The notes under the pieces are model-generated. The model worked only from the letters and a program-made list of their open reading frames with translations, was not told where the DNA came from and did no database searches. From a virus (Duplodnaviria > Caudoviricetes), in the IMG/VR virus record IMGVR_UViG_3300030430_003901, positions 1 through 53,691 of that record: a stretch of DNA of 53,691 nt. One strand, given 5' to 3'. A program made the position numbers and the translations under genes. This document shows positions 4,678 to 33,042 of the stretch, piece by piece; within the stretch, counting starts at the first letter, position 1, and every line of letters starts with the position of its first letter.

Positions 4678-4709
4678 CAAAGATACGAAAAAAATTCGAC
4701 ATATCCAAA
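4678..4709 (-). promoter_or_regulatory. Early-class promoter, copy 1 of conserved 32-bp motif
   Basis: TTTG-GATATGTCGAATTTTTTTCG-TATCTTTG matches the Bacteroidetes -33 TTTG / -7 TAnnTTTG layout. Confidence 0.8.
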
Positions 4710-14198: not shown

Positions 14199-14230
14199 CA
14201 ATATTACGAAAAGAAATCGACATACGCAAA
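14199..14230 (-). promoter_or_regulatory. Early-class promoter, copy 2
   Basis: TTTG-CGTATGTCGATTTCTTTTCG-TAATATTG. Confidence 0.75.
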
Positions 14231-15486: not shown

Positions 15487-15603
15487 AGGGCAAGTCAGGA
15501 TTCGAACCTGCTTCTATAACTAAGGTATGTGTCAAATCAGTAGAGGTTTATGACTTCTCTACCTATACCACTCCCCTCCACCCATGTGGAGATTACTTGC
15601 CCT
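15487..15603 (-). ncRNA. tRNA-like element 1: acceptor-like stem + T-arm with about 85-nt structured insert, no anticodon arm
   Basis: AGGGCAAGT...CAGG-TTCGAAT-CCTG-ACTTGCCCT; internal hairpins CTCCAC/GTGGAG and GTAGAG/CTCTAC; D-loop-like AGTGG. Confidence 0.65.
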
Positions 15604-16460: not shown

Positions 16461-16503
16461 GGAGTTGGGGGACTCGAACCCCCTGTTTTTCCATTAAGAC
16501 TCC
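16461..16503 (-). ncRNA. tRNA-like minihelix 2
   Basis: GGAGTc-TTAATGGAAAAACA-GGGGG-TTCGAGT-CCCCC-aACTCC-ACA. Confidence 0.65.
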
Positions 16504-16530: not shown

Positions 16531-16562
16531 CAATAATACGACAAAAAATCGACATATGCAAG
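16531..16562 (-). promoter_or_regulatory. Early-class promoter, copy 3
   Basis: CTTG-CATATGTCGATTTTTTGTCG-TATTATTG. Confidence 0.7.
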
Positions 16563-16821: not shown

Positions 16822-16964
16822 AGATATTTATATTTAGATTGTTTTGCTTTCCATTGCTTATGCCAATACGCATACTCAGAGTCCTGAGGTCGCAACACTT
16901 GGATGCGACCCCCCTCCTCCTTCTGAACACATATGACATTTGTATTTAACTTCTTAACTATCAT
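16818..16964 (-). CDS. Small hypothetical protein (start moved to MIVKKLN)
   Basis: The shorter start overlaps the upstream gene's end; ATGA coupling downstream. Confidence 0.5.
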   Translation of the reverse strand: MIVKKLNTNVICVQKEEGGRIQVLRPQDSEYAYWHKQWKAKQSKYKYL

Positions 16965-18276
16965 CGTTCTCAAGTTTTGCAAGATACTCAAATTGTGCAT
17001 CGTTCTGCTTTCCAAACAACTCGATGAAGTGTTGTTCGTTATGCTCCTCCTTCACATACTCGCTATCGAATGCACCCTTGAAAACTAAATCGCCTTGACA
17101 CGCATGAGACAGGTCATATATAATTTTACTATCATTAGGGTATTTGACAATCAAATTGCAATGACCATATCTCTTGGCAGGATATCCATTACTACCATAG
17201 GTTGTTGATGACTTGTCAGAAGTATAGACCTTACAGTTTGGGAACTTCTCTTGTAGTTTTCTTTTACTCTCAAGCAAGAAAACTTCTCGCCTTTGTTCTG
17301 CCTGTACCTTTTGGGTTTCTGTCTTAACCCACGCCCTATGGTCTAACATATATGTAGTGAAGTTGACAGTTCTCCTTGTTTCACTCCATCGATTAGTCAT
17401 TTTATAGTTCACAACCTTCCTGTCATATCCACTCCTTTTAGTAACCAAATTTCCTGTCAAAAGACTGACTGACTTGTCCTCATCGTATCGAGAACCTTTG
17501 ATGCTATAGTACAGTTTGGCTTCTCCCTTCTGCTTATATAATAAACCTCGGTTAGCGTCCCTGAAATTAAAGGTTACCTCCAACAGTTTACCCACAGTAT
17601 AACCATAACCTGATACTCCAAAAGATAAAGTTATCGAGTGTGTGTCTCTATCGTTAGACCAAACATCGTCCTCGAAGGTTATCTCATTGCCAATTACACC
17701 ATTGTACTCATCAGTATACCAATCCTTTCGTCTCTCAACGATTGGTTTCTCTTTATACTGCTGAATAAAACTTTTAATTTTGAGGTATTCGTCATAGTCC
17801 TCCCACGCACTATACATACGCATAGCGAGTTGGTCGCATAGATGATACTTAATCATTGAAATAAGTGCGATGTCAGGGACTAACTCACCTTTGATTCTTT
17901 TGAACTCGTGTAAGGTGTTACGCCATTTACTGACCTCTCCAACCTTATATATATACTCCCCTTCATTGTCAGAGTTTTTATACATCTTTGATATCAAGTC
18001 CTCATGCTTGAGTAAATCCATCCAAAAATCATTATGCTCTTGTTTGACAACAGCCCCTTGATATTCAGTTACAACCTTTGGTTGAGGTAGTGTCTTGTCA
18101 CTACTATAATGCTTGGCACTATCGTAGTCAGGGTTCGCCAAGAAGTCCTGTGTCGTGATTGTCGCACTCTCTATATAGGTGTCAAAGTTCTCGAATATTT
18201 CATTCACAAGAGCAACCTTGTGGATTGGATTCCTGAGTCTGCTTTCAGACATTTTCTGTTTTAGTGTTTTTTCCAT
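16954..18276 (-). CDS. Hypothetical protein, about 440 aa (start moved to MEKTLKQ)
   Basis: The track start at 18339 is the ATG inside the hammerhead CTGATGA core; ATG at 18276 follows an A-rich leader. Confidence 0.75.
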   Translation of the reverse strand: MEKTLKQKMSESRLRNPIHKVALVNEIFENFDTYIESATITTQDFLANPDYDSAKHYSSDKTLPQPKVVTEYQGAVVKQEHNDFWMDLLKHEDLISKMYKNSDNEGEYIYKVGEVSKWRNTLHEFKRIKGELVPDIALISMIKYHLCDQLAMRMYSAWEDYDEYLKIKSFIQQYKEKPIVERRKDWYTDEYNGVIGNEITFEDDVWSNDRDTHSITLSFGVSGYGYTVGKLLEVTFNFRDANRGLLYKQKGEAKLYYSIKGSRYDEDKSVSLLTGNLVTKRSGYDRKVVNYKMTNRWSETRRTVNFTTYMLDHRAWVKTETQKVQAEQRREVFLLESKRKLQEKFPNCKVYTSDKSSTTYGSNGYPAKRYGHCNLIVKYPNDSKIIYDLSHACQGDLVFKGAFDSEYVKEEHNEQHFIELFGKQNDAQFEYLAKLENDDS

Positions 18277-18291
18277 AATATAATTTTTTTT

Positions 18292-18348
18292 ATACCTAAG
18301 AACCCGAAGGTTCTTTCGTGCCATTTCAGGACTACTCATCAGAGGTAT
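18292..18348 (-). ncRNA. Hammerhead ribozyme 1 (type I)
   Basis: ATACCT-CTGATGA-GTAGTCCTGAAATGGCAC-GAAA-GAACC-TTCG-GGTTC-TT/AGGTAT. Stems I and III perfect, stem II imperfect. CUU triplet, predicted cut between 18298 and 18297. Confidence 0.8.
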
Positions 18349-18738
18349 TTAACACATCGCATTGAAGTGTCTTTCGATATCAGTAGCGATTATCTTTATC
18401 TCATTGAAGGAGTGTCGATAATCAGAACTCTCTACCTCATCTCTGACTTCAACTTTCATTCTCCTTGGCAACTCGTTATATATATCTATACCCTTCTCGT
18501 ATTTCTGTAGGGCTTCCCACACATACTTCTCACGACCATGCTTGAGGTAGTGCGTGTTAATCAATCTCGCACCTTCATATATATAATTAAGTGCGTGGTC
18601 TTTCTTGGTCTCATACGAGTTCTGTATGAGGTCTGAAGTAGATTTCCAAATCTTATTCAAGATTTCTTTCTGCTCCTTGTTGACACCTTGTGTCTCGAGA
18701 GCAATCAACTGTGTTTGTATTTCGAGTATTGGGTTCAT
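18349..18738 (-). CDS. Hypothetical early protein
   Basis: First gene after promoter copy 4; its stop directly abuts hammerhead 1. Confidence 0.7.
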   Translation of the reverse strand: MNPILEIQTQLIALETQGVNKEQKEILNKIWKSTSDLIQNSYETKKDHALNYIYEGARLINTHYLKHGREKYVWEALQKYEKGIDIYNELPRRMKVEVRDEVESSDYRHSFNEIKIIATDIERHFNAMC

Positions 18739-18757
18739 AGTGCTTTGAAAATTTCGA

Positions 18758-18789
18758 CAAACATACGAAAAGATTTCGACATATGCAAA
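18758..18789 (-). promoter_or_regulatory. Early-class promoter, copy 4
   Basis: TTTG-CATATGTCGAAATCTTTTCG-TATGTTTG. Confidence 0.8.
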
Positions 18790-18813
18790 TCTTTTTTTTG
18801 TCTGTCAGGTTAG

Positions 18814-18856
18814 GTTCAGGGAAGGGAATCGAACCCTTCTGCGTCCAACCCTGAAC
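18814..18856 (-). ncRNA. tRNA-like minihelix 3
   Basis: GTTCAGGG-TTGGACGCAG-AAGGG-TTCGATT-CCCTT-CCCTGAAC, a 13-bp coaxial stack. Confidence 0.7.
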
Positions 18857-18875
18857 TACAGGCATATATATATAA

Positions 18876-19334
18876 CTAAAAATCACCCTCTGCTACCTGA
18901 AAGCAGGGTATCCCATTCCTTCTCCACATCTTGACAACTTTATTCCTGTCATCAAAGACAGCAATTACTCTGTTCCTGTCAATGATTTGTGGGTCGTTCA
19001 ACCATGACTCCTTCAGTTCATCATCAGGCATCATGAGTTTGTCTAAAGGTCTCATAATCAGTGCCTTCCAAGGAACCTTATGCTCCTTCAACCACTTGAC
19101 AGTAGCGTCTTGTGTTGCTATACTTCTGCCACTAAATATATATATATCGTGGTTGAAATTGTCGAGTTCTCTCGCTGTCTTTATGACTGCGTGATTAGGT
19201 TTGTCCATGTCGATGTTCTTGGGGTCAAAAAATTTGTTCCAATCAATCTTACCTTCAGGAGTGCTTGAGTAATCTCTCCTGTCTTGGATGTCAGCGAGTG
19301 TGCCATCCAAATCAAAAATGTAAATGTCTCTCAT
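18876..19334 (-). CDS. Stand-alone HAD phosphatase, T4 PseT/PNK 3'-phosphatase-like domain
   Basis: IFDLDGTLAD, FSGR, LIMRP, FDDRNKVVKMWRRNGIPCFQVAEGDF; no kinase P-loop. Confidence 0.85.
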   Translation of the reverse strand: MRDIYIFDLDGTLADIQDRRDYSSTPEGKIDWNKFFDPKNIDMDKPNHAVIKTARELDNFNHDIYIFSGRSIATQDATVKWLKEHKVPWKALIMRPLDKLMMPDDELKESWLNDPQIIDRNRVIAVFDDRNKVVKMWRRNGIPCFQVAEGDF

Positions 19335-19343
19335 ATCTGTAAA

Positions 19344-19535
19344 TTAAGTTAAGTTATTTATTATTCTGTTCAACTTCCCACTCTCAACCTGATAAGTCAA
19401 ATCATCAACCATACCAAGTTCTCTATCTCGTTCTAACCGAGCGAGTTCGTCTTGGTAGATTTCCAATAGGTCTTTTTCTGCCATTGCTTTTCTGTTCCAA
19501 GCGTCTGCTTTTATTTGCCACTTTGTTTTTCTCAT
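19344..19535 (-). CDS. Hypothetical early protein
   Basis: (AT)n leader after tRNA-like element 4. Confidence 0.6.
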   Translation of the reverse strand: MRKTKWQIKADAWNRKAMAEKDLLEIYQDELARLERDRELGMVDDLTYQVESGKLNRIINNLT

Positions 19536-19555
19536 ATATATAAATTAAAATTAGT

Positions 19556-19596
19556 TTCAGGGGGTGGAATCGAACCACCCTGCAACCATTCCTGAA
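19556..19596 (-). ncRNA. tRNA-like minihelix 4
   Basis: TTCAGG-AATGGTTGCA-GGGTGG-TTCGATT-CCACCC-CCTGAA, a 12-bp stack. Confidence 0.7.
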
Positions 19597-19597
19597 T

Positions 19598-19644
19598 GAA
19601 GGACAATCACACCCCTCATAAATGAGGGGGGTGTGATTTCCTTC
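19598..19644 (-). other. Strong hairpin between stop codon and minihelix 4
   Basis: GAAGGAAATCACACCCCCCTCAT-TT-ATGAGGGGTGTGATTGTCCTTC; no U-tract. Confidence 0.7.
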
Positions 19645-19649
19645 GCTGA

Positions 19650-20066
19650 TTATACATTTAACCTTCTCTCCTTGATAGCGTCACAGAGTATCTCTCTGTA
19701 CTCTTGGCTACCTCTCCTGATAGCACCCAAAACATCGCCCTCCAAGACCGAGGTCATGAACGAACCTTCACCTTTTTTCATGGTGAACTTCATATCTATT
19801 TCACCATTGTCAGTCAGGTAGTATGCACACCTCGAACCGATATAACTGTCTGACTCATAATTCAAGTTTGATAACCCATCCATATCATTTATATTTTTAC
19901 ACAGGGCTGTAGTTAGAACCACTAACATTTGGTATCCTTCCCAATTAACCAAGTATTCGTAACTCTTGTAATGACCTGTTGGATGCACACCATCTGCTAA
20001 AGGTCTGCTTAGACACTTCGGTACGAAGTACTCGTTGATTTCGATTTTATTTGATTGTTTTTCCAT
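19650..20066 (-). CDS. Hypothetical early protein
   Basis: (AT)n leader directly after hammerhead 2. Confidence 0.7.
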   Translation of the reverse strand: MEKQSNKIEINEYFVPKCLSRPLADGVHPTGHYKSYEYLVNWEGYQMLVVLTTALCKNINDMDGLSNLNYESDSYIGSRCAYYLTDNGEIDMKFTMKKGEGSFMTSVLEGDVLGAIRRGSQEYREILCDAIKERRLNV

Positions 20067-20088
20067 CGTATATATATATTTAAAAATT

Positions 20089-20139
20089 TCTGTTTCGTCC
20101 TTTTGGACTCATCAGGATAGGCACACACCTATCGACAGA
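20089..20139 (-). ncRNA. Hammerhead ribozyme 2 (type III)
   Basis: TCTGTC/GATAGG-TGTGTG-CCTATC-CTGATGA-GTCC-AAAA-GGAC-GAAA-CAGA. All core bases and three stems present. GUC triplet, cut between 20134 and 20133. Confidence 0.93.
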
Positions 20140-20157
20140 GGGGGTCTTGCGACCCCC
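20140..20157 (-). other. GNRA-tetraloop hairpin immediately 5' of hammerhead 2
   Basis: GGGGGTC-GCAA-GACCCCC. Confidence 0.75.
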
Positions 20158-20164
20158 ATCTCGA

Positions 20165-21121
20165 TTACTTCCCCTCGAGAACATAGTCGACTGCTCTCGC
20201 TGACTTTGTCAGAGCCGATACAACTGCTTTCGAGTCCTCCATCTTAACCCTCTTGACCCATCCATTGATGTATGCTTGAGAGTTGGTTTCATCGTCACCA
20301 CAGTCAGTACAGATACCTGAGAGACCTGATAACATCATCGCACCACTCTCAGCAATCAGTTCCTCAAAAGCATATCTGTCAGCACCAAAGAAGGTGAAAT
20401 CAACTATGCCCTCTCTCTTGAGTCTGCTCTCATGACCTGTTGAGTGAATCATCTCATGGAACAGCGTCTTGTAGTAGTTATCTATTTTCTTGAACTGCTT
20501 CTTTTCAGGCATCACTATTTTGTCCTCTGTTGGACTGTAGTACGCTCTGTTTTGGTTGACATCCTTGATGGTCAACTTCTTGTTCGCCTTCTTGTAATCT
20601 CTGATTACCTTTTCAGCACTCTCGATTGGAGTAATCTCAACTTCCTCTGTTGGAACTCTTTTTGGTTTGATGTCGCCCTCTATCTGAGATATATTATATA
20701 CTCTGAAGTAGAACATCGAGAAATTTGTGTATACATCACTCTCCTCACATTTTTCCTTCCTGATACACTCATCAAGTTTTGTGTACCACTTACCTGAACC
20801 TTTAGGTTTGAATACGCAGTAGGAAATTTTCCAATTGTACACCTCAGAGTATTTCGTCATCTCATCTGTTTTTACTCTGTAACCTGCTTTCACGATTGAG
20901 TTCAGAGTAGCCCATTCGTTGACTGTGTACTCTCTCGCCCTCATCACATGGTTGAGGAAAAACTGATTGATACCTCTGTACTCTCTACCTGAGAAGTGGT
21001 TGATGGGGTGATTGTCCCCTGATTTCCATGGTCGGAACCATTGTAGACCTTCCTTCTGAAGACCTTCGAGAAGTGCCTGTTTGACCTTCTCTGTTACATC
21101 GAATTTAGATTTTTTTGTCAT
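20165..21121 (-). CDS. ardC: ArdC-like antirestriction ssDNA-binding protein with zincin-like C-terminal domain
   Basis: WFRPW, N..SGREYRGIN, RAYYSP..D.I.MP, TLFHEMIHSTGH..RL.R, YAFEELIAE. Confidence 0.88.
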   Translation of the reverse strand: MTKKSKFDVTEKVKQALLEGLQKEGLQWFRPWKSGDNHPINHFSGREYRGINQFFLNHVMRAREYTVNEWATLNSIVKAGYRVKTDEMTKYSEVYNWKISYCVFKPKGSGKWYTKLDECIRKEKCEESDVYTNFSMFYFRVYNISQIEGDIKPKRVPTEEVEITPIESAEKVIRDYKKANKKLTIKDVNQNRAYYSPTEDKIVMPEKKQFKKIDNYYKTLFHEMIHSTGHESRLKREGIVDFTFFGADRYAFEELIAESGAMMLSGLSGICTDCGDDETNSQAYINGWVKRVKMEDSKAVVSALTKSARAVDYVLEGK

Positions 21122-21160
21122 TTTTCAAAATTTTGGCTTTCGCCTGTTATATATATATTT

Positions 21161-21209
21161 CCTGTTTCGCCTTCTTTGGCTCATCAGCACAGGGTCACCT
21201 GTGGACAGG
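21161..21209 (-). ncRNA. Hammerhead ribozyme 3 (type III)
   Basis: CCTGTC/CACAGG-TGAC-CCTGTG-CTGATGA-GCC-AAAGAA-GGC-GAAA-CAGG. GUC triplet, cut between 21204 and 21203. Confidence 0.92.
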
Positions 21210-21227
21210 GGGGAACCGAAGTCCCCC
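21210..21227 (-). other. cUUCGg hairpin immediately 5' of hammerhead 3
   Basis: GGGGGAC-TTCG-GTTCCCC. Confidence 0.75.
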
Positions 21228-21232
21228 TCAGA

Positions 21233-21427
21233 CTACGCTACTCTGTCCTCGAATCCATAGAGGTCGCCAAGCGTTTGAAAGATGTTGTCTCTCTCTACCT
21301 CATATTCCTCCTCTGTAATCCAACCTTGAGCAAATAGTTTCTCGAGGTTGTCCTCAAGGAAAAATAAGTGTCTTGCTTCTTGAGTAGTGTTATCTGTTGT
21401 GTTAGTATTTGTAATATTCGTATTCAT
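21233..21427 (-). CDS. First early gene, hypothetical (start moved to MNTNITN)
   Basis: The track start at 21481 lies inside the promoter; ATG at 21427 follows a leader shared with ardC. Confidence 0.6.
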   Translation of the reverse strand: MNTNITNTNTTDNTTQEARHLFFLEDNLEKLFAQGWITEEEYEVERDNIFQTLGDLYGFEDRVA

Positions 21428-21478
21428 ATCTGTTAATTTTTGTGGCTCTCGCCTGTTATATTTATTTAAATTCATGCT

Positions 21479-21509
21479 CAAATATAGTTCAATTTTCGTT
21501 CAATCCAAA
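21479..21509 (-). promoter_or_regulatory. Leading early promoter (Bacteroidetes primary-sigma type)
   Basis: TTTG-GATTGAACGAAAATTGAAC-TATATTTG. Confidence 0.7.
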
Positions 21510-22495: not shown

Positions 22496-24097
22496 ATGAA
22501 TCCAAAAGAACTACACTTCGATAGTGATGGACGAAATAAACTGCTTAGTGGAATTACGAAAATAGCGAAAGCAGTTAAGTCTACTTTAGGTCCACAAGGA
22601 AACACAGTCTTAATAGAATCACAAGAACATACAGGAGGAATTACTGTGACGAAAGATGGAGTAACAGTTGCTAAATCAATAAACCTGTTGGACTCAGTTG
22701 AGAATCTTGCAGTAAGAATAATGAAAGAAGCCGCAGATAAAACCGCAACCTCAGCCGGTGATGGAACTACAACTGCTATAGTATTAACTGAATCTTTAGT
22801 TGCTCATGGTCTACAACACTTTAATGACCAAGTCACAAATAGAACTGAAGTATTAAAATTATTGCAGAGTGAATGTGATAATATAATTAAAAGACTAAAG
22901 AAGGATTCAAAAAAAATAACAGGCAAGAAACTAAAAGATGTTGCGGTCATCTCAGCAAACAATGACGATAAGATTGGTAATTTAATTTACAAGGTTTATA
23001 GTGAGGTTGGTAAAGATGGTATAGTAACGGTTGAGAAATCAAAGAACCATGAAACTTATTATGAAACCACACAGGGAATGAAAATAGATAGAGGATATAG
23101 TTCACCTTTATTTATAAACAATCAAAAACATGATGAGTGTATTTATGAAGACATAAAAGTTTTAGTAGCCGATGCAGAGATATCAAACATACTACAAATT
23201 GAAAATGCACTAAAGCCACTAATAAATAAAAAAGAAAAACTATTAATCATTGCACCATGCACAACTCAGTTTACAAATACTCTTGCTGCGAATGTAATGA
23301 AGAATGGTCTAAAGCTTGTAAGCATAGCACCTCCTGAGTTTGGTTACAGACAACATGAACTTATGCAAGATATTGCTTTGTCAGTTGGTGCAACATATTT
23401 TAGCGAGAAGACAGGTGACGATTTAAGTCTCATCCGCTATGACGACTTGGGTCATTGTGCCAAGGTGATAGTTGGTCGTGATTCTACAGTCGTCATAAAA
23501 GATGAGCATGATAAAAAATCTTCTGAGATAAAAGATAGAGTAGATGAACTTTGGGTTGCATATGAAAACTCAAAAAGAAAAGAAGATAAATCATTTATAC
23601 AAAAAAGAATAGCTTCACTAACCGGAGGTATAGGTGTTATGTTTGTGGGAGGCAACACAGACTTAGAACAGAAAGAACTATACGATAGAGTGGACGATGC
23701 AGTTTGTGCTGTGAAGTCAGCTTTGGAAGAGGGTATACTTCCGGGTGGTGGACTTAGCTTATATCATTTAGGGAATGAATATGAAGTAGCAACTATAGAT
23801 GAAGAAAATTTAGAAAAAAAAATTGCTTACGCAATTTTAGCAAAAGCTCTACAATCTCCCTTAGAACAAATACTTTCCAACGCAGGATATGATAATGTTT
23901 ATCTTGGAAAGAAAACAGAAAAGAACGAAGGGTTCGATGTTAAGAATGAGAGATGGGGAAATATGTATGACATGGGAATCATTGACCCTATGAAAGTAAC
24001 AAGGTCAGCTTTGCAAAACGCAATAAGCGTTGCTGTAACTTTACTTTCAACCAACGCAATAGTAACTATTAAAAGAAAACAAGATGCCAATATTTAA
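22496..24097 (+). CDS. groEL: Phage-encoded chaperonin GroEL
   Basis: AVKSTLGPQG, VTKDGVTVAK, AGDGTTTA, RVDDAVCA, EEGILPGGG, GIIDPMKV; lacks the GGM tail. Confidence 0.97.
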   Translation: MNPKELHFDSDGRNKLLSGITKIAKAVKSTLGPQGNTVLIESQEHTGGITVTKDGVTVAKSINLLDSVENLAVRIMKEAADKTATSAGDGTTTAIVLTESLVAHGLQHFNDQVTNRTEVLKLLQSECDNIIKRLKKDSKKITGKKLKDVAVISANNDDKIGNLIYKVYSEVGKDGIVTVEKSKNHETYYETTQGMKIDRGYSSPLFINNQKHDECIYEDIKVLVADAEISNILQIENALKPLINKKEKLLIIAPCTTQFTNTLAANVMKNGLKLVSIAPPEFGYRQHELMQDIALSVGATYFSEKTGDDLSLIRYDDLGHCAKVIVGRDSTVVIKDEHDKKSSEIKDRVDELWVAYENSKRKEDKSFIQKRIASLTGGIGVMFVGGNTDLEQKELYDRVDDAVCAVKSALEEGILPGGGLSLYHLGNEYEVATIDEENLEKKIAYAILAKALQSPLEQILSNAGYDNVYLGKKTEKNEGFDVKNERWGNMYDMGIIDPMKVTRSALQNAISVAVTLLSTNAIVTIKRKQDANI

Positions 24098-32236: not shown

Positions 32237-32467
32237 ATGGACATTCGAAAAATCTCAGTAGGTCCTGATTACAAATCAGGAGGTATGCACTATATAGTTG
32301 GGCAGTCTGTTCTAAACGGTGGCTACGAGATTCATTTAATTAAATACAACCAAGAAGAAGACGCATATCAGATTTTTATATTAGACACAAGCGAAGGTGA
32401 AGTTTTGTTGTGGAAGCAATTTAATTCTACTATGCCCGTTACTCTTGAGTTTAATATAAATTTTTAA
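32237..32467 (+). CDS. Conserved hypothetical protein
   Basis: IRKISVGPDYK..MHY.VGQ; first gene of the packaging block. Confidence 0.7.
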   Translation: MDIRKISVGPDYKSGGMHYIVGQSVLNGGYEIHLIKYNQEEDAYQIFILDTSEGEVLLWKQFNSTMPVTLEFNINF

Positions 32468-33042
32468 TGAAATCACCCACACAATTTCTTGTCAAGCCCA
32501 AAGGCAATCAAAGATATAGCAACACAAAACAATACGAGGGATTAAACTTAATTCTTGATACTTCTGAAGAGTCTGCATCTTTTTCTAATAGAGAAGCAAT
32601 TGTTGTTGAGACGCCAATAATGTATGACGGTCCTGTTGAAAAGGGTGATATACTTTTGGTTCATCACAATGTCTTTAAGTTTTATAATGATATGTATGGC
32701 AAAAGACAAAGCGGTAAGAGTTATTTCAAAGACAACACTTTTTTTGTGGATGAAACTCAATATTATATGTTTTATAAAAATAATGAGTGGAACGCTGTTG
32801 ACCCTTTTTGTTTTGTTTCGCCTTTACCTGCAATTGAAACTTATATATATAAACCATTTTCAAATGAACCATTGATGGGTGTGATGGAATATCCTGCAGA
32901 ATCTATAAAAAAACACGGGATAAAAAAAGGAGATATTGTTACCTTTATGCCCGACTCAGAATATGAATTTAAATTTAACAATAATAAATTGTATAGAATC
33001 AGAACTAACAACATAGTGGCATATGAACCTCAAAGAAACTAA
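32467..33042 (+). CDS. Tandem GroES-like-fold protein
   Basis: Two GroES-like halves: FLVKP...AIVVETP...VEKGDILLV and FVSPL...GVMEY...IKKGDIVTF...LYRI. Confidence 0.5.
   Translation: MKSPTQFLVKPKGNQRYSNTKQYEGLNLILDTSEESASFSNREAIVVETPIMYDGPVEKGDILLVHHNVFKFYNDMYGKRQSGKSYFKDNTFFVDETQYYMFYKNNEWNAVDPFCFVSPLPAIETYIYKPFSNEPLMGVMEYPAESIKKHGIKKGDIVTFMPDSEYEFKFNNNKLYRIRTNNIVAYEPQRN

What the first reader, a model, noticed from the sequence alone, without database searches (positions are those of the whole stretch)
18292..18348. Type I hammerhead fused to a stop codon, setting the 5' end of the 440-aa gene
Seen: stem I starts on the base after the TAA of 18349-18738. The predicted cut (CUU) leaves a 21-nt A-rich leader before ATG 18276. 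Its topology differs from HH2/HH3, suggesting independent acquisition. Imperfect stem II and the CUU triplet suggest slower cleavage (inference). The ORF track start at 18339 is just the AUG inside CUGAUGA.
Basis: partly seen in the sequence, partly recalled or inferred. Interest (0 to 1): 0.7.

Follow-up and report, generated by a model that had tools for sequence, protein, structure and literature searches.

The report
Phage intergenic type I hammerhead ribozyme
A genuine self-cutting hammerhead RNA sits directly behind a stop codon in the early operon of an uncultured marine phage, where it most likely cuts the message between two genes; it is a well-supported new example of a kind known in phages since 2011.

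Summary
On the minus strand, 18348-18292 reads AUACCU/CUGAUGA/stem II/GAAA/GAACC-UUCG-GGUUC/UU^/AGGUAU. TAA 18351-18349 lies directly 5', and ATG 18276 lies 21 nt after the predicted cut.

Rfam alone does not call it: Hammerhead_1 scores 16.8 bits against a gathering score of 34. Comparative evidence does. The same 29-nt core occurs in 20 other contigs. On a model-made alignment, 13 of 17 pairs change on both sides and 95.6% of cells pair. The cleavage triplet is always NUH. A full type I descriptor hits the window once and never in 300 shuffles.

The extra 21 codons are not protein: relatives have leaders of 20, 21 or 22 nt and all share the Met at 18276.

The window is a tailed phage. Its leftward early arm also carries two type III hammerheads flanking an ArdC-like gene, an arrangement Perreault et al. 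described in 2011.

The "imperfect" stem II is invariant across unrelated phages, so it is a selected feature, not decay.

In a broader phage sample, type I copies abut the upstream stop (27 of 39). Type III copies sit about 31 nt after it, behind a hairpin (0 of 15 abut).

Verdict: real, a new member of a known kind. Cleavage is untested.

The parts
18292..18348 (-). Type I hammerhead ribozyme, 57 nt. Stem I is 18348-18343 with 18297-18292. Core CUGAUGA is 18342-18336. Stem II is 18335-18318. GAAA is 18317-18314. Stem III hairpin is 18313-18300. U16.1 is 18299 and U17 is 18298.
   Evidence: Sequence. Descriptor: 1 hit, 0 of 300 shuffles. Own model R1 scores 95.2 bits, though this sequence is in the model. 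Covariation. Rfam Hammerhead_1: 16.8 bits, below the gathering score of 34.
18297..18298 (-). Predicted self-cleavage site, after U17 of the triplet CUU. The upstream product would end in a 2',3'-cyclic phosphate and the downstream product would start with a 5'-OH at A18297.
   Evidence: The position follows from the hammerhead numbering (A15.1-U16.1, H17). Relatives carry CUC, GUC, GUU or GUA at the same place. Cleavage itself was not tested.
18349..18351 (-). TAA stop codon of the upstream 129-aa ORF. It abuts stem I and occupies the conserved A-rich 5' flank of the ribozyme.
   Evidence: The flank AA(A) is present in all 17 distinct rows. The stop lies 0-2 nt from a 5-bp stem I in 13 of 17 copies.
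18277..18297 (-). 21-nt A/U-rich leader left on the downstream message. Its first 6 nt are the 3' strand of stem I.
   Evidence: Relatives have leaders of 20, 21 and 22 nt. The phage lacks Shine-Dalgarno sequences: 1 of 41 genes has an SD-like 4-mer.
16954..18276 (-). Downstream gene, 440 aa, function unknown. Its true start is ATG 18276.
   Evidence: Met invariant in 8 of 8 sequences. No Pfam or PHROG family. AlphaFold2 mean pLDDT 59. No Foldseek match with E<=0.001.
18349..18738 (-). Upstream gene, 129 aa, function unknown.
   Evidence: No Pfam or PHROG family. Homologous in L009, L015, L013, L020 and L022.
20087..20141 (-). The cut follows GUC at 20134. It is preceded by the GC hairpin GGGGGUC-GCAA-GACCCCC (about 20157-20140), which follows the TAA of the ArdC-like gene.
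   Evidence: RF00008 at 46.2 bits (gathering 48.5), E 4.9e-07. Conserved in L013, L005 and L017 with compensatory stem I changes.
21159..21211 (-). Type III hammerhead (context). The cut follows GUC at 21204. It is preceded by the GC hairpin GGGGGAC-UUCG-GUUCCCC (about 21227-21210), which follows the TAG of the 80-aa SHOCT-like ORF.
   Evidence: RF00008 at 37.4 bits (gathering 48.5), E 1.6e-04. Conserved in L013 with a compensatory change.
20165..21121 (-). ArdC-like anti-restriction gene (318 aa), flanked by the two type III hammerheads.
   Evidence: PF08401 ArdcN 9e-15. PF18818 zincin-like peptidase 6.1e-29. phrog_7245 anti-restriction protein 1.3e-54.

Best explanation
The element is a functional type I hammerhead ribozyme, transcribed as part of the leftward early mRNA of a tailed phage.

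Once stem I's 3' strand has been made, the RNA folds and cuts itself after U18298. The upstream piece is the 129-aa cistron. It keeps its stop codon and ends, 51 nt later, in the compact ribozyme fold with a 2',3'-cyclic phosphate. The downstream piece starts with a 5'-OH and an unstructured 21-nt A/U-rich leader in front of the 440-aa gene.

Together with the two type III hammerheads around the ArdC-like gene, it divides one long message into separately stable and separately translatable units. The selected property is probably that every cut message ends in a structured element placed right after its stop codon.

Shown here: the motif, its conservation and covariation, its placement, and the placement rule. 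Inferred: cleavage, co-transcription, and the effects on stability and translation.
For: Identity:
- Every hammerhead core position is present.
- The 29-nt core is found in 4 viral and 16 metagenome contigs. They carry six different combinations of stems I and III, all fully complementary.
- On the model-made alignment of 29 matches (17 distinct rows), 95.6% of cells pair, against 70.2% in shuffles (0 of 500 reach it) and 22-45% when partners are slid.
- In the same alignment, 13 of 17 pairs change on both sides. G10.1-C11.1 is kept in 17 of 17 rows and A15.1-U16.1 in 16 of 16.
- Position 17 is C, U or A, never G.
- Stem II pair 10.2-11.2 switches from U-A to A-U in L023 and L024.
- The descriptor gives 1 hit in the window and 0 of 300 shuffles have any.

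Not coding:
- Met at 18276 is invariant.
- Leaders of 20, 21 and 22 nt break the frame.

Context:
- The phage has two divergent arms, and the three ribozymes lie in the first ~3.5 kb of the replication/early arm.
- No terminator-like site lies on the minus strand between 15500 and 22600.
- The same three-ribozyme layout occurs in L013, and partly in L005 and L017.

Placement rule:
- In a sample of 119 phage contigs, 27 of 39 distinct type I copies with an upstream ORF lie <=3 nt from, or overlap, the stop (median gap 1 nt).
- For type III copies the figure is 0 of 15 (median gap 31 nt), and the gap is mostly a stable hairpin.
- Fisher p = 4e-06.
- The window fits this rule: stop-to-cut is 51 nt for the type I copy, and 29 and 31 nt with GC hairpins for the type III copies.

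Precedent:
- Perreault et al. 2011 (PMC3088659, section 6 read) report clustered hammerheads of mixed types flanking genes in prophages.
- One of their cases is a triple arrangement around the anti-restriction gene ardA.
- Those ribozymes cleave in vitro and in E. coli.
Against: - No cleavage or transcript data exist for this phage.
- Rfam's Hammerhead_1 scores 16.8 bits against a gathering score of 34. None of the type I copies in ten related loci was reported as Hammerhead_1 at E<=0.05.
- Folding energy is not better than shuffles.
- The alignment used for the pair counts was fitted to the model's structure. The core was held fixed by my search pattern, so core conservation among those 21 copies is by construction.
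- L014 is the same virus (100% identical) and adds nothing.
- A repeated promoter- or operator-like motif at 18776-18788 may start a transcript just upstream of the 129-aa gene. In that case the message being cut may be short.
- The consequences of a 5'-OH and a cyclic phosphate in the unknown host are not known.
- The placement survey used a heuristic classifier.
Confidence: 0.8

Rival explanations
1. Ribosome-gated ribozyme. Because the stop codon lies in the ribozyme's 5' flank, a terminating ribosome covers stem I and the CUGAUGA box. Cutting would then be coupled to, and timed by, translation of the upstream gene. On this reading the abutment is regulatory, not just compaction.
For: The stop is 0-2 nt from stem I in 13 of 17 copies of this subfamily. 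It is <=3 nt away or overlapping in 27 of 39 type I copies of the broad sample. The abutting stop is TAA in every case in the subfamily, and it sits in the conserved AA(A) flank.
Against: The A-rich flank is also present where no stop codon lies there, in L007, L018/L019 and L024. The flank therefore seems to be a ribozyme feature that a TAA merely fits. Offsets vary (0, 1, 2, 5 nt, or the stop inside the core). Phage genomes are compact anyway. No experiment bears on this.
Confidence: 0.1
2. A DNA-level role. The conserved ribozyme sequence would serve mainly as a junction for homologous recombination, or as the boundary of a mobile gene cassette, with RNA cleavage secondary.
For: L005 and L017 carry a 57-nt ribozyme identical to that of L013, yet different genes on both sides. 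L013, L020 and L022 have an extra ~170-210 nt that ends exactly at the ribozyme's 5' edge. Perreault et al. note that the flanked genes 'are not constant'.
Against: Compensatory changes in all three helices show selection on the RNA structure, not on DNA identity. Unrelated phages share only the core, which is too short to drive recombination between them. Breakpoints at gene boundaries are expected in mosaic phages whatever lies there.
Confidence: 0.06
3. Chance motif or decayed relic. On this reading 18339-18277 encodes an N-terminal extension of a 461-aa protein, or the ribozyme is inactive.
For: The ORF is open from ATG 18339. One database gene call, P0002, includes the extension. Rfam is below threshold. 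H17 is U and stem II has two bulges.
Against: 0 of 300 shuffles give the descriptor. Covariation is strong. Leaders of 20 and 22 nt in relatives put the internal AUG out of frame. The Met at 18276 is invariant. Stem II is invariant rather than decaying. U17 obeys the NUH rule.
Confidence: 0.03
4. Excision and circularisation. The RNA between a type III cut (20134) and the type I cut (18298) would be released with 5'-OH and cyclic-phosphate ends and then ligated into a circular or spliced RNA.
For: The end chemistry would suit an RtcB-type ligase (recalled). Perreault et al. raise the possibility.
Against: [quoted passage not shown] The ~1.8-kb interval holds four ordinary genes. I found no ligase among the 35 of 70 ORFs that I scanned against PHROGs.
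Confidence: 0.02

Closest known systems
Clustered hammerhead ribozymes flanking genes in prophages and phages (Perreault et al. 2011, PMC3088659; section 6 read)
   Same: Several hammerheads of different topologies lie in one co-directional phage gene block. They flank single genes of varying identity, and an anti-restriction gene is bracketed by ribozymes (ardA there, an ArdC-like gene here). The proposed role is processing of a polycistronic RNA.
   Different: The phage and host lineage differ (a marine phage without Shine-Dalgarno sequences). The anti-restriction family differs. This type I copy belongs to a subfamily with an invariant bulged stem II. The paper's main text does not use the term 'stop codon' (0 occurrences). 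Its Dataset S1 could not be seen, so this subfamily may already be listed there.
Hammerhead ribozyme type I, Rfam RF00163 (clan CL00010)
   Same: Same core, same three-helix junction, stem I open, stems II and III capped, and an NUH cleavage site.
   Different: It scores 16.8 bits against a gathering score of 34. Stem III is long, and stem II has two bulges. Stem I is only 5-6 bp, with conserved A-rich flanks in place of the internal loop of the Schistosoma type (the latter is recalled).
Self-cleaving ribozymes in bacterial 3' UTRs and polycistronic mRNAs, as summarised in Weinberg, Weinberg and Hammann 2019 (PMC6765202; passages of section 13 read)
   Same: The ribozyme sits after a coding region. 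[quoted passage not shown]
   Different: That work used twister reporters. The review states that the purpose is still undefined.
RNase III processing sites of the phage T7 early region (recalled, not checked here)
   Same: An early polycistronic phage message is cut at gene boundaries, and the upstream fragment ends in a hairpin.
   Different: A host protein enzyme does the cutting there. Here the RNA would cut itself, and the end chemistry differs.
Type I hammerheads in 5' UTRs of RNA mycoviruses that enable translation initiation (PMC13725137; abstract read)
   Same: A type I hammerhead lies just upstream of an ORF, and self-cleavage defines the 5' end used for translation.
   Different: Those are eukaryotic RNA viruses using cap-independent translation. 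No such dependence has been shown or is needed in bacteria.

Membership tests
Hammerhead ribozyme (type I) | Conserved core: C3 U4 G5 A6 N7 G8 A9 and G12 A13 A14 | tested here: met
   CUGAUGA at 18342-18336 and GAA at 18317-18315. These are identical in the relatives, although the core was fixed by the search pattern.
Hammerhead ribozyme (type I) | Three helices around the core, supported by covariation | tested here: met
   Pairs with changes on both sides: stem I 5 of 6, stem II 3 of 5, stem III 5 of 6. 95.6% of cells pair, against 22-45% when partners are slid. The alignment was fitted to the model, but the raw sequences show the same thing.
Hammerhead ribozyme (type I) | G10.1-C11.1 closing stem II and A15.1-U16.1 closing stem III | tested here: met
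   GC in 17 of 17 distinct rows and AU in 16 of 16.
Hammerhead ribozyme (type I) | Cleavage site N-U-H, with position 17 not G | tested here: met
   CUU in the window. CUC, GUC, GUU, GUA and AUA in the other copies, never G.
Hammerhead ribozyme (type I) | Type I topology: 5' and 3' ends in stem I, with stems II and III capped by loops | tested here: met
   Sequence order and the descriptor.
Hammerhead ribozyme (type I) | Score at or above Rfam's gathering threshold for RF00163 | tested here: not met
   16.8 bits against 34, E 0.12 in a 151-nt scan. No hit in the whole-window scans. This is a curated cut-off of one general 45-position model, not a structural criterion.
Hammerhead ribozyme (type I) | Tertiary contact between stem I and loop II that gives fast cleavage | tested here: inconclusive
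   Loop II (UGAAAU) and the bulged stem II are invariant. A-rich flanks next to the 5-bp stem I are conserved in all 17 distinct rows. A Watson-Crick pseudoknot between loop II and the upstream flank is possible only in the L003 group, judged by eye.
Hammerhead ribozyme (type I) | Site-specific self-cleavage giving 2',3'-cyclic phosphate and 5'-OH ends | not testable with these tools
   No RNA run was listed as holding the stretch.
Clustered phage/prophage hammerheads (Perreault et al. 2011) | Two or more hammerheads close together on one strand, flanking single genes or short gene blocks of a phage | tested here: met
   Three hammerheads lie within 2.9 kb on the minus strand, at 18292-18348, 20087-20141 and 21159-21211.

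The most novel reading that the evidence does not exclude
Phage hammerheads may follow an undescribed design rule: the cut message must end in a folded element that begins at its stop codon.

Type I copies achieve this by fusing the ribozyme itself to the stop. In this subfamily the TAA lies inside a conserved A-rich flank that, together with an invariant bulged stem II and loop II, may form the tertiary contact. If so, the terminating ribosome and the active fold would compete for the same nucleotides. Type III copies instead recruit a separate hairpin between the stop and the ribozyme.

The subfamily is shared by phages of hosts with and without Shine-Dalgarno sequences and is missed by current Rfam models.
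Probability: 0.2. Interest if true: 0.6.

Novelty: new member of a known kind. Interest (0 to 1): 0.32.

Why it matters
The biological role of the many hammerheads in phage genomes is still called an open question (PMC6155905 and PMC6765202, passages read). This locus adds no new kind of element, but it is a clean, comparatively well-supported case in a compact layout. One early arm of one phage holds two ribozyme topologies, and each is placed so that the upstream message would end in a structure just behind its stop codon. The contrast between type I and type III placement gives a concrete, testable hypothesis for what the cut is for: 27 of 39 type I copies against 0 of 15 type III copies abut the stop. 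It also shows that a widespread phage subfamily escapes Rfam's type I model at its threshold, which matters for annotation.

Tried and rejected
Searches that gave nothing:
- Rfam at gathering found nothing in the window.
- blastn of 16900-21500 against the phage collection gave no match.
- Protein-seeded locus scans found no relatives. This covers the single protein and alignment A1 in viral contigs and in metagenome contigs. I switched to seeding with the RNA core.
- Freeing stem II positions in the pattern gave only one new viral locus, L023, and one genome locus, L024.

Alignment:
- MAFFT alignment A2 misplaced stem III because the loop lengths differ. I replaced it with the model-made alignment A4.

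Transcript evidence:
- No RNA holder was listed.

The 440-aa protein:
- No Pfam or PHROG family.
- AlphaFold2 mean pLDDT 59.
- No Foldseek PDB match with E<=0.001; the top TM-scores were about 0.1.
- The ESM Atlas gave no usable hit.

Ideas rejected:
- A loop II pseudoknot with the upstream flank. It is possible only in the L003 group and absent in the window group, judged by eye.
- A functional link between the ribozymes and the neighbouring stand-alone PNKP-type phosphatase (end healing). L005 and L017 keep the type I ribozyme, and tblastx shows no match to that gene in what we hold of them.

Literature:
- The triplet-kinetics search gave only general statements.
- Three searches of the held library found no paper on stop-codon placement of phage hammerheads. 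Subscription papers and supplements, including Dataset S1 of PMC3088659, could not be seen.

Format slips:
- One search was corrected, and one search was corrected. One search was not repeated.

Full report
THE OBSERVATION

Read on the minus strand, 18351-18274 is TAA | AUACCU CUGAUGA GUAGUCCUGAAAUGGCAC GAAA GAACC-UUCG-GGUUC U U | AGGUAU AAAAAAAAUUAUAUU AUG. Every position that defines a hammerhead is present, in the type I order. Stem I is open, and stems II and III are capped.

The TAA belongs to the 129-aa ORF 18349-18738. The ATG at 18276 opens a 440-aa ORF. The 461-aa ORF listed from 18339 starts on the AUG inside CUGAUGA.

IS IT MORE THAN CHANCE?

Thermodynamics alone says nothing: the fold is -13.7 kcal/mol, z = -0.97, and 36 of 200 shuffles fold as well.

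Rfam does not call it either. There is no match at gathering thresholds. None appears at this place in the whole-window scan at E<=10. In a 151-nt scan, Hammerhead_1 aligns end to end on exactly 18292-18348, but at 16.8 bits against a gathering score of 34.

A descriptor of my own is more telling. It requires stem I >=5 bp, CUGAUGA, a G...C stem II, GAAA, stem III >=4 bp, then U and H. It hits the window once, at these coordinates, and hits none of 300 dinucleotide shuffles.

COMPARATIVE EVIDENCE

Protein-seeded scans for related loci failed, so I seeded with the 29-nt core plus stem II. It occurs exactly in 4 viral and 16 metagenome contigs. One of them, L014, is the same virus (100% identical over 12 kb) and is not independent.

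The others fall into two sets by tblastx against the window:
- Syntenic relatives: L009, L013, L015, L020, L022, L005 and L017.
- Phages with no tblastx match: L003, L007, L016 and L019, the four tested. L004, L006, L008, L010-L012 and L021 carry the L003-type copy, L018 the L019-type copy, and L023 (from a later search) also gave no match.

With the core fixed by the search, stems I and III come in six combinations, each fully complementary. Stem I is AUACCU, CAUCC, CACCC or AGCGU. Stem III is GAACC, GACCC (with a 4-nt or a 16-nt loop), CUAGCUG, CAGC or CGCCUA. The triplet is CUU, CUC, GUC, GUU or GUA.

Freeing stem II in the pattern added L023 (viral) and L024 (a Lachnospiraceae MAG). Both carry a compensatory U-A to A-U change at pair 10.2-11.2.

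I built a covariance model from four equal-geometry copies. It found 29 matches in 23 sources, including more divergent type I copies elsewhere in the same contigs, but no second type I copy in the window. On its alignment (17 distinct rows, 17 pairs):
- 95.6% of cells pair, against 70.2% in shuffles (0 of 500 reach it) and 22-45% when partners are slid.
- 13 of 17 pairs change on both sides.
- G10.1-C11.1 is kept in 17 of 17 rows and A15.1-U16.1 in 16 of 16.

This alignment leans towards the model's structure, but the raw sequences show the same compensation.

THE 21 CODONS ARE NOT PROTEIN

All eight aligned sequences share the Met at 18276. Only one database gene call (P0002) carries the extension. 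In relatives the distance from the cut to that ATG is 20, 21 or 22 nt, which puts the internal AUG out of frame.

CONTEXT

The window is a whole IMG/VR virus record, estimated 89% complete. It is a tailed phage with two divergent arms.
- The rightward arm holds GroEL/GroES-like genes, lysis genes, terminase, portal and virion genes.
- The leftward arm holds helicases, a primase/helicase, an exonuclease and an HNH endonuclease (35 of 70 ORFs were scanned).

The first ~3.5 kb of the leftward arm reads, in order:
- an 80-aa SHOCT-like ORF
- a GC hairpin
- a type III hammerhead (21159-21211, 37.4 bits)
- an ArdC-like anti-restriction gene
- a GC hairpin
- a type III hammerhead (20087-20141, 46.2 bits; gathering 48.5)
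- a 138-aa ORF
- a 63-aa ORF
- a stand-alone PNKP-type HAD phosphatase
- the 129-aa ORF
- the type I hammerhead
- the 440-aa ORF

The type III copies and their hairpins recur in L013, L005 and L017 with compensatory stem I changes. No terminator-like site lies on the minus strand between 15500 and 22600. Only 1 of 41 genes has an SD-like 4-mer, and leaders are 83% A+U, so the 21-nt leader is an ordinary initiation region for this phage.

WHAT IS KNOWN

Perreault et al. 2011 (PMC3088659; section 6 read) describe this kind of arrangement. Several hammerheads of mixed types flank single genes in prophages, and the genes vary. One case is a triple arrangement around the anti-restriction gene ardA. 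Those ribozymes cleave in vitro and in E. coli, and the suggested role is processing of long phage transcripts.

Reviews still call the role open (PMC6155905; PMC6765202; passages read). Several contigs that share this core also carry twister-P1 matches (just under their gathering score), and L003 and L006 a pistol ribozyme above its cut-off. This is the known ribozyme-rich phage context.

WHAT THIS CASE ADDS

First, the 'imperfect' stem II is invariant. G-C and U-A are followed by a bulged A, then G-C, a bulged U, C-G, C-G and the loop UGAAAU. This is identical in 21 copies whose other helices vary freely, and the copies include phages with strong Shine-Dalgarno leaders and phages with none. 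It is therefore a selected module, not decay.

Second, the nucleotides next to a 5-bp stem I are conserved: 5' AA-A, and 3' (G/U/A)-A-(U/A)-A. This holds in all 17 distinct rows, including copies where no stop codon lies there. The TAA thus occupies a conserved flank of the ribozyme. I infer that this flank is the docking site of loop II.

Third, the placement is regular. In this subfamily 13 of 17 copies have 0-2 nt between the TAA and stem I. One ORF ends on the core UGA. Three copies do not fit, with gaps of 5, 31 and 52 nt; one of them has a CCGAUGA core.

I then took a broader sample with the pattern CTGATGAGT-N8-20-ACGAAA. My heuristic classifier called 50 type I and 16 type III and left 59 unclassified. 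After de-duplication there were 47 type I and 16 type III copies. The results were:
- Type I: 27 of 39 copies with an upstream ORF of >=40 codons lie <=3 nt from the stop or overlap it. The median gap is 1 nt, and the stops are 17 TAA, 9 core UGA and 1 TAG.
- Type III: 0 of 15 do so. The median gap is 31 nt, and in most of them the gap is a stable hairpin abutting the ribozyme.
- Fisher p = 4e-06 and Mann-Whitney p = 5e-05.

The distance from stop to cut has a median of 54 nt for type I and 37 nt for type III. The window gives 51 nt for type I and 29 and 31 nt for type III. In both designs the upstream fragment keeps its stop codon and ends in a folded element that begins at that stop.

MECHANISM

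I commit to self-cleavage of the early transcript between the 129-aa and 440-aa cistrons. The cut uncouples the two messages. The upstream one ends in the ribozyme fold with a cyclic phosphate. The downstream one begins with a 5'-OH and a free A/U-rich leader.

The identity as a hammerhead is very likely (about 0.9). The processing and 3'-end-protection role is inferred (about 0.6). The ribozyme is not specific to the 440-aa gene: L005 and L017 keep the identical 57 nt between two other genes, and L013, L020 and L022 have an insertion ending at its 5' edge.

The rivals are ribosome gating, a DNA-level recombination junction, a relic or coding extension, and circularisation. They are scored in their own section.

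The topology is a circular permutation, and stem II differs from the type III copies and is shared with unrelated phages. All three ribozymes predate the split of these relatives, so the history cannot be resolved here.

LIMITS

- There are no cleavage or transcript data; no RNA holder was listed.
- The core is fixed by the search design.
- The survey used a heuristic classifier and a truncated sample.
- Supplements of the key paper could not be seen, so this stem II variant may already be listed there.
- Earlier notes of this scan report similar type I hammerheads at stop codons and stop-hairpin-hammerhead modules in other phages. They were leads, and I tested the placement claim myself.

VERDICT

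This is a real feature and a new member of a known kind, of modest interest. It comes with a testable placement rule as a by-product.

Noticed in passing
window 15498-15508, 16470-16480, 18825-18835, 19566-19576 (all minus strand): Four T-loop-type motifs (GGTTCGANTCC) lie in other intergenic gaps of the same early arm. That is 4 found against 0.03 expected, with 0 of 100 shuffles reaching 4. ARAGORN calls no tRNA in the window. The elements at about 18862-18812 and 19597-19548 look like acceptor-stem plus T-arm minihelices, with compensatory T-stem changes (GAAGG/CCUUC versus GGUGG/CCACC). They may be tRNA-like processing signals occupying the same kind of slot as the ribozymes.
   Followed up: partly
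window 18776-18788 and 16549-16561 (exact); 14217-14229 and 4696-4708 (1 mismatch); all minus strand: The motif TTGCATATGTCGA recurs upstream of genes in the leftward arm. There are 5 matches at <=2 mismatches against 1.36 expected, and 2 of 100 shuffles reach 5. It may be an internal promoter or an operator. One copy lies 38 nt before the ATG of the 129-aa gene, so the transcript cut by the type I hammerhead might start there.
   Followed up: partly
window about 21227-21210 and 20157-20140 (minus strand); also L013, L005, L017: A GC-rich hairpin with a UUCG or GCAA tetraloop sits between the stop codon and each type III hammerhead, and it is conserved in relatives. In a broader sample, type III phage hammerheads lie a median of 31 nt after the stop, mostly behind such a hairpin.
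   Followed up: yes
window about 19640-19605 (minus strand): A long, near-perfect hairpin (about 14 bp, loop UUUA) lies just after the stop of the 138-aa ORF, with no U-run after it. It may be another processing or stabilising element.
   Followed up: no
L003, L006, L008, L021, L023 (gut-type phage contigs sharing the 29-nt core): These contigs are packed with self-cleaving ribozymes. There are several twister-P1 matches (42-64 bits, just under the gathering score of 67.2), a pistol ribozyme in L003 and L006 (62.6 bits, above 34.5), further type I hammerheads, and in L006 a block of 16 tRNA matches. L019 has a type II hammerhead at 34 bits (gathering 37).
   Followed up: partly
L005:1515-1571 and L017:961-1017 versus L013:3534-3590: The identical 57-nt type I hammerhead sits between different genes on both sides. 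L013, L020 and L022 carry an extra ~170-210 nt that ends exactly at the ribozyme's 5' edge. The ribozyme therefore marks a mosaic boundary.
   Followed up: partly
L016:5877-5943 (minus strand): This type I copy has the core CCGAUGA (U4 replaced by C) and no upstream ORF abutting it. It may be inactive.
   Followed up: no
window 18876-19334 (minus strand): A stand-alone PNKP-type HAD phosphatase domain (PF25109, 9.7e-31) lies in the same block as the ribozymes, with no kinase domain. I considered a link to healing of cyclic-phosphate ends, but tblastx shows no match to that gene in the parts of L005 and L017 held, although they keep the ribozyme.
   Followed up: partly
window 22496-24097 and 32467-33042 (plus strand): The phage encodes a GroEL-like chaperonin (phrog_5725, 8.2e-132) and a GroES-like co-chaperonin (phrog_13932, 2.1e-24).
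   Followed up: no
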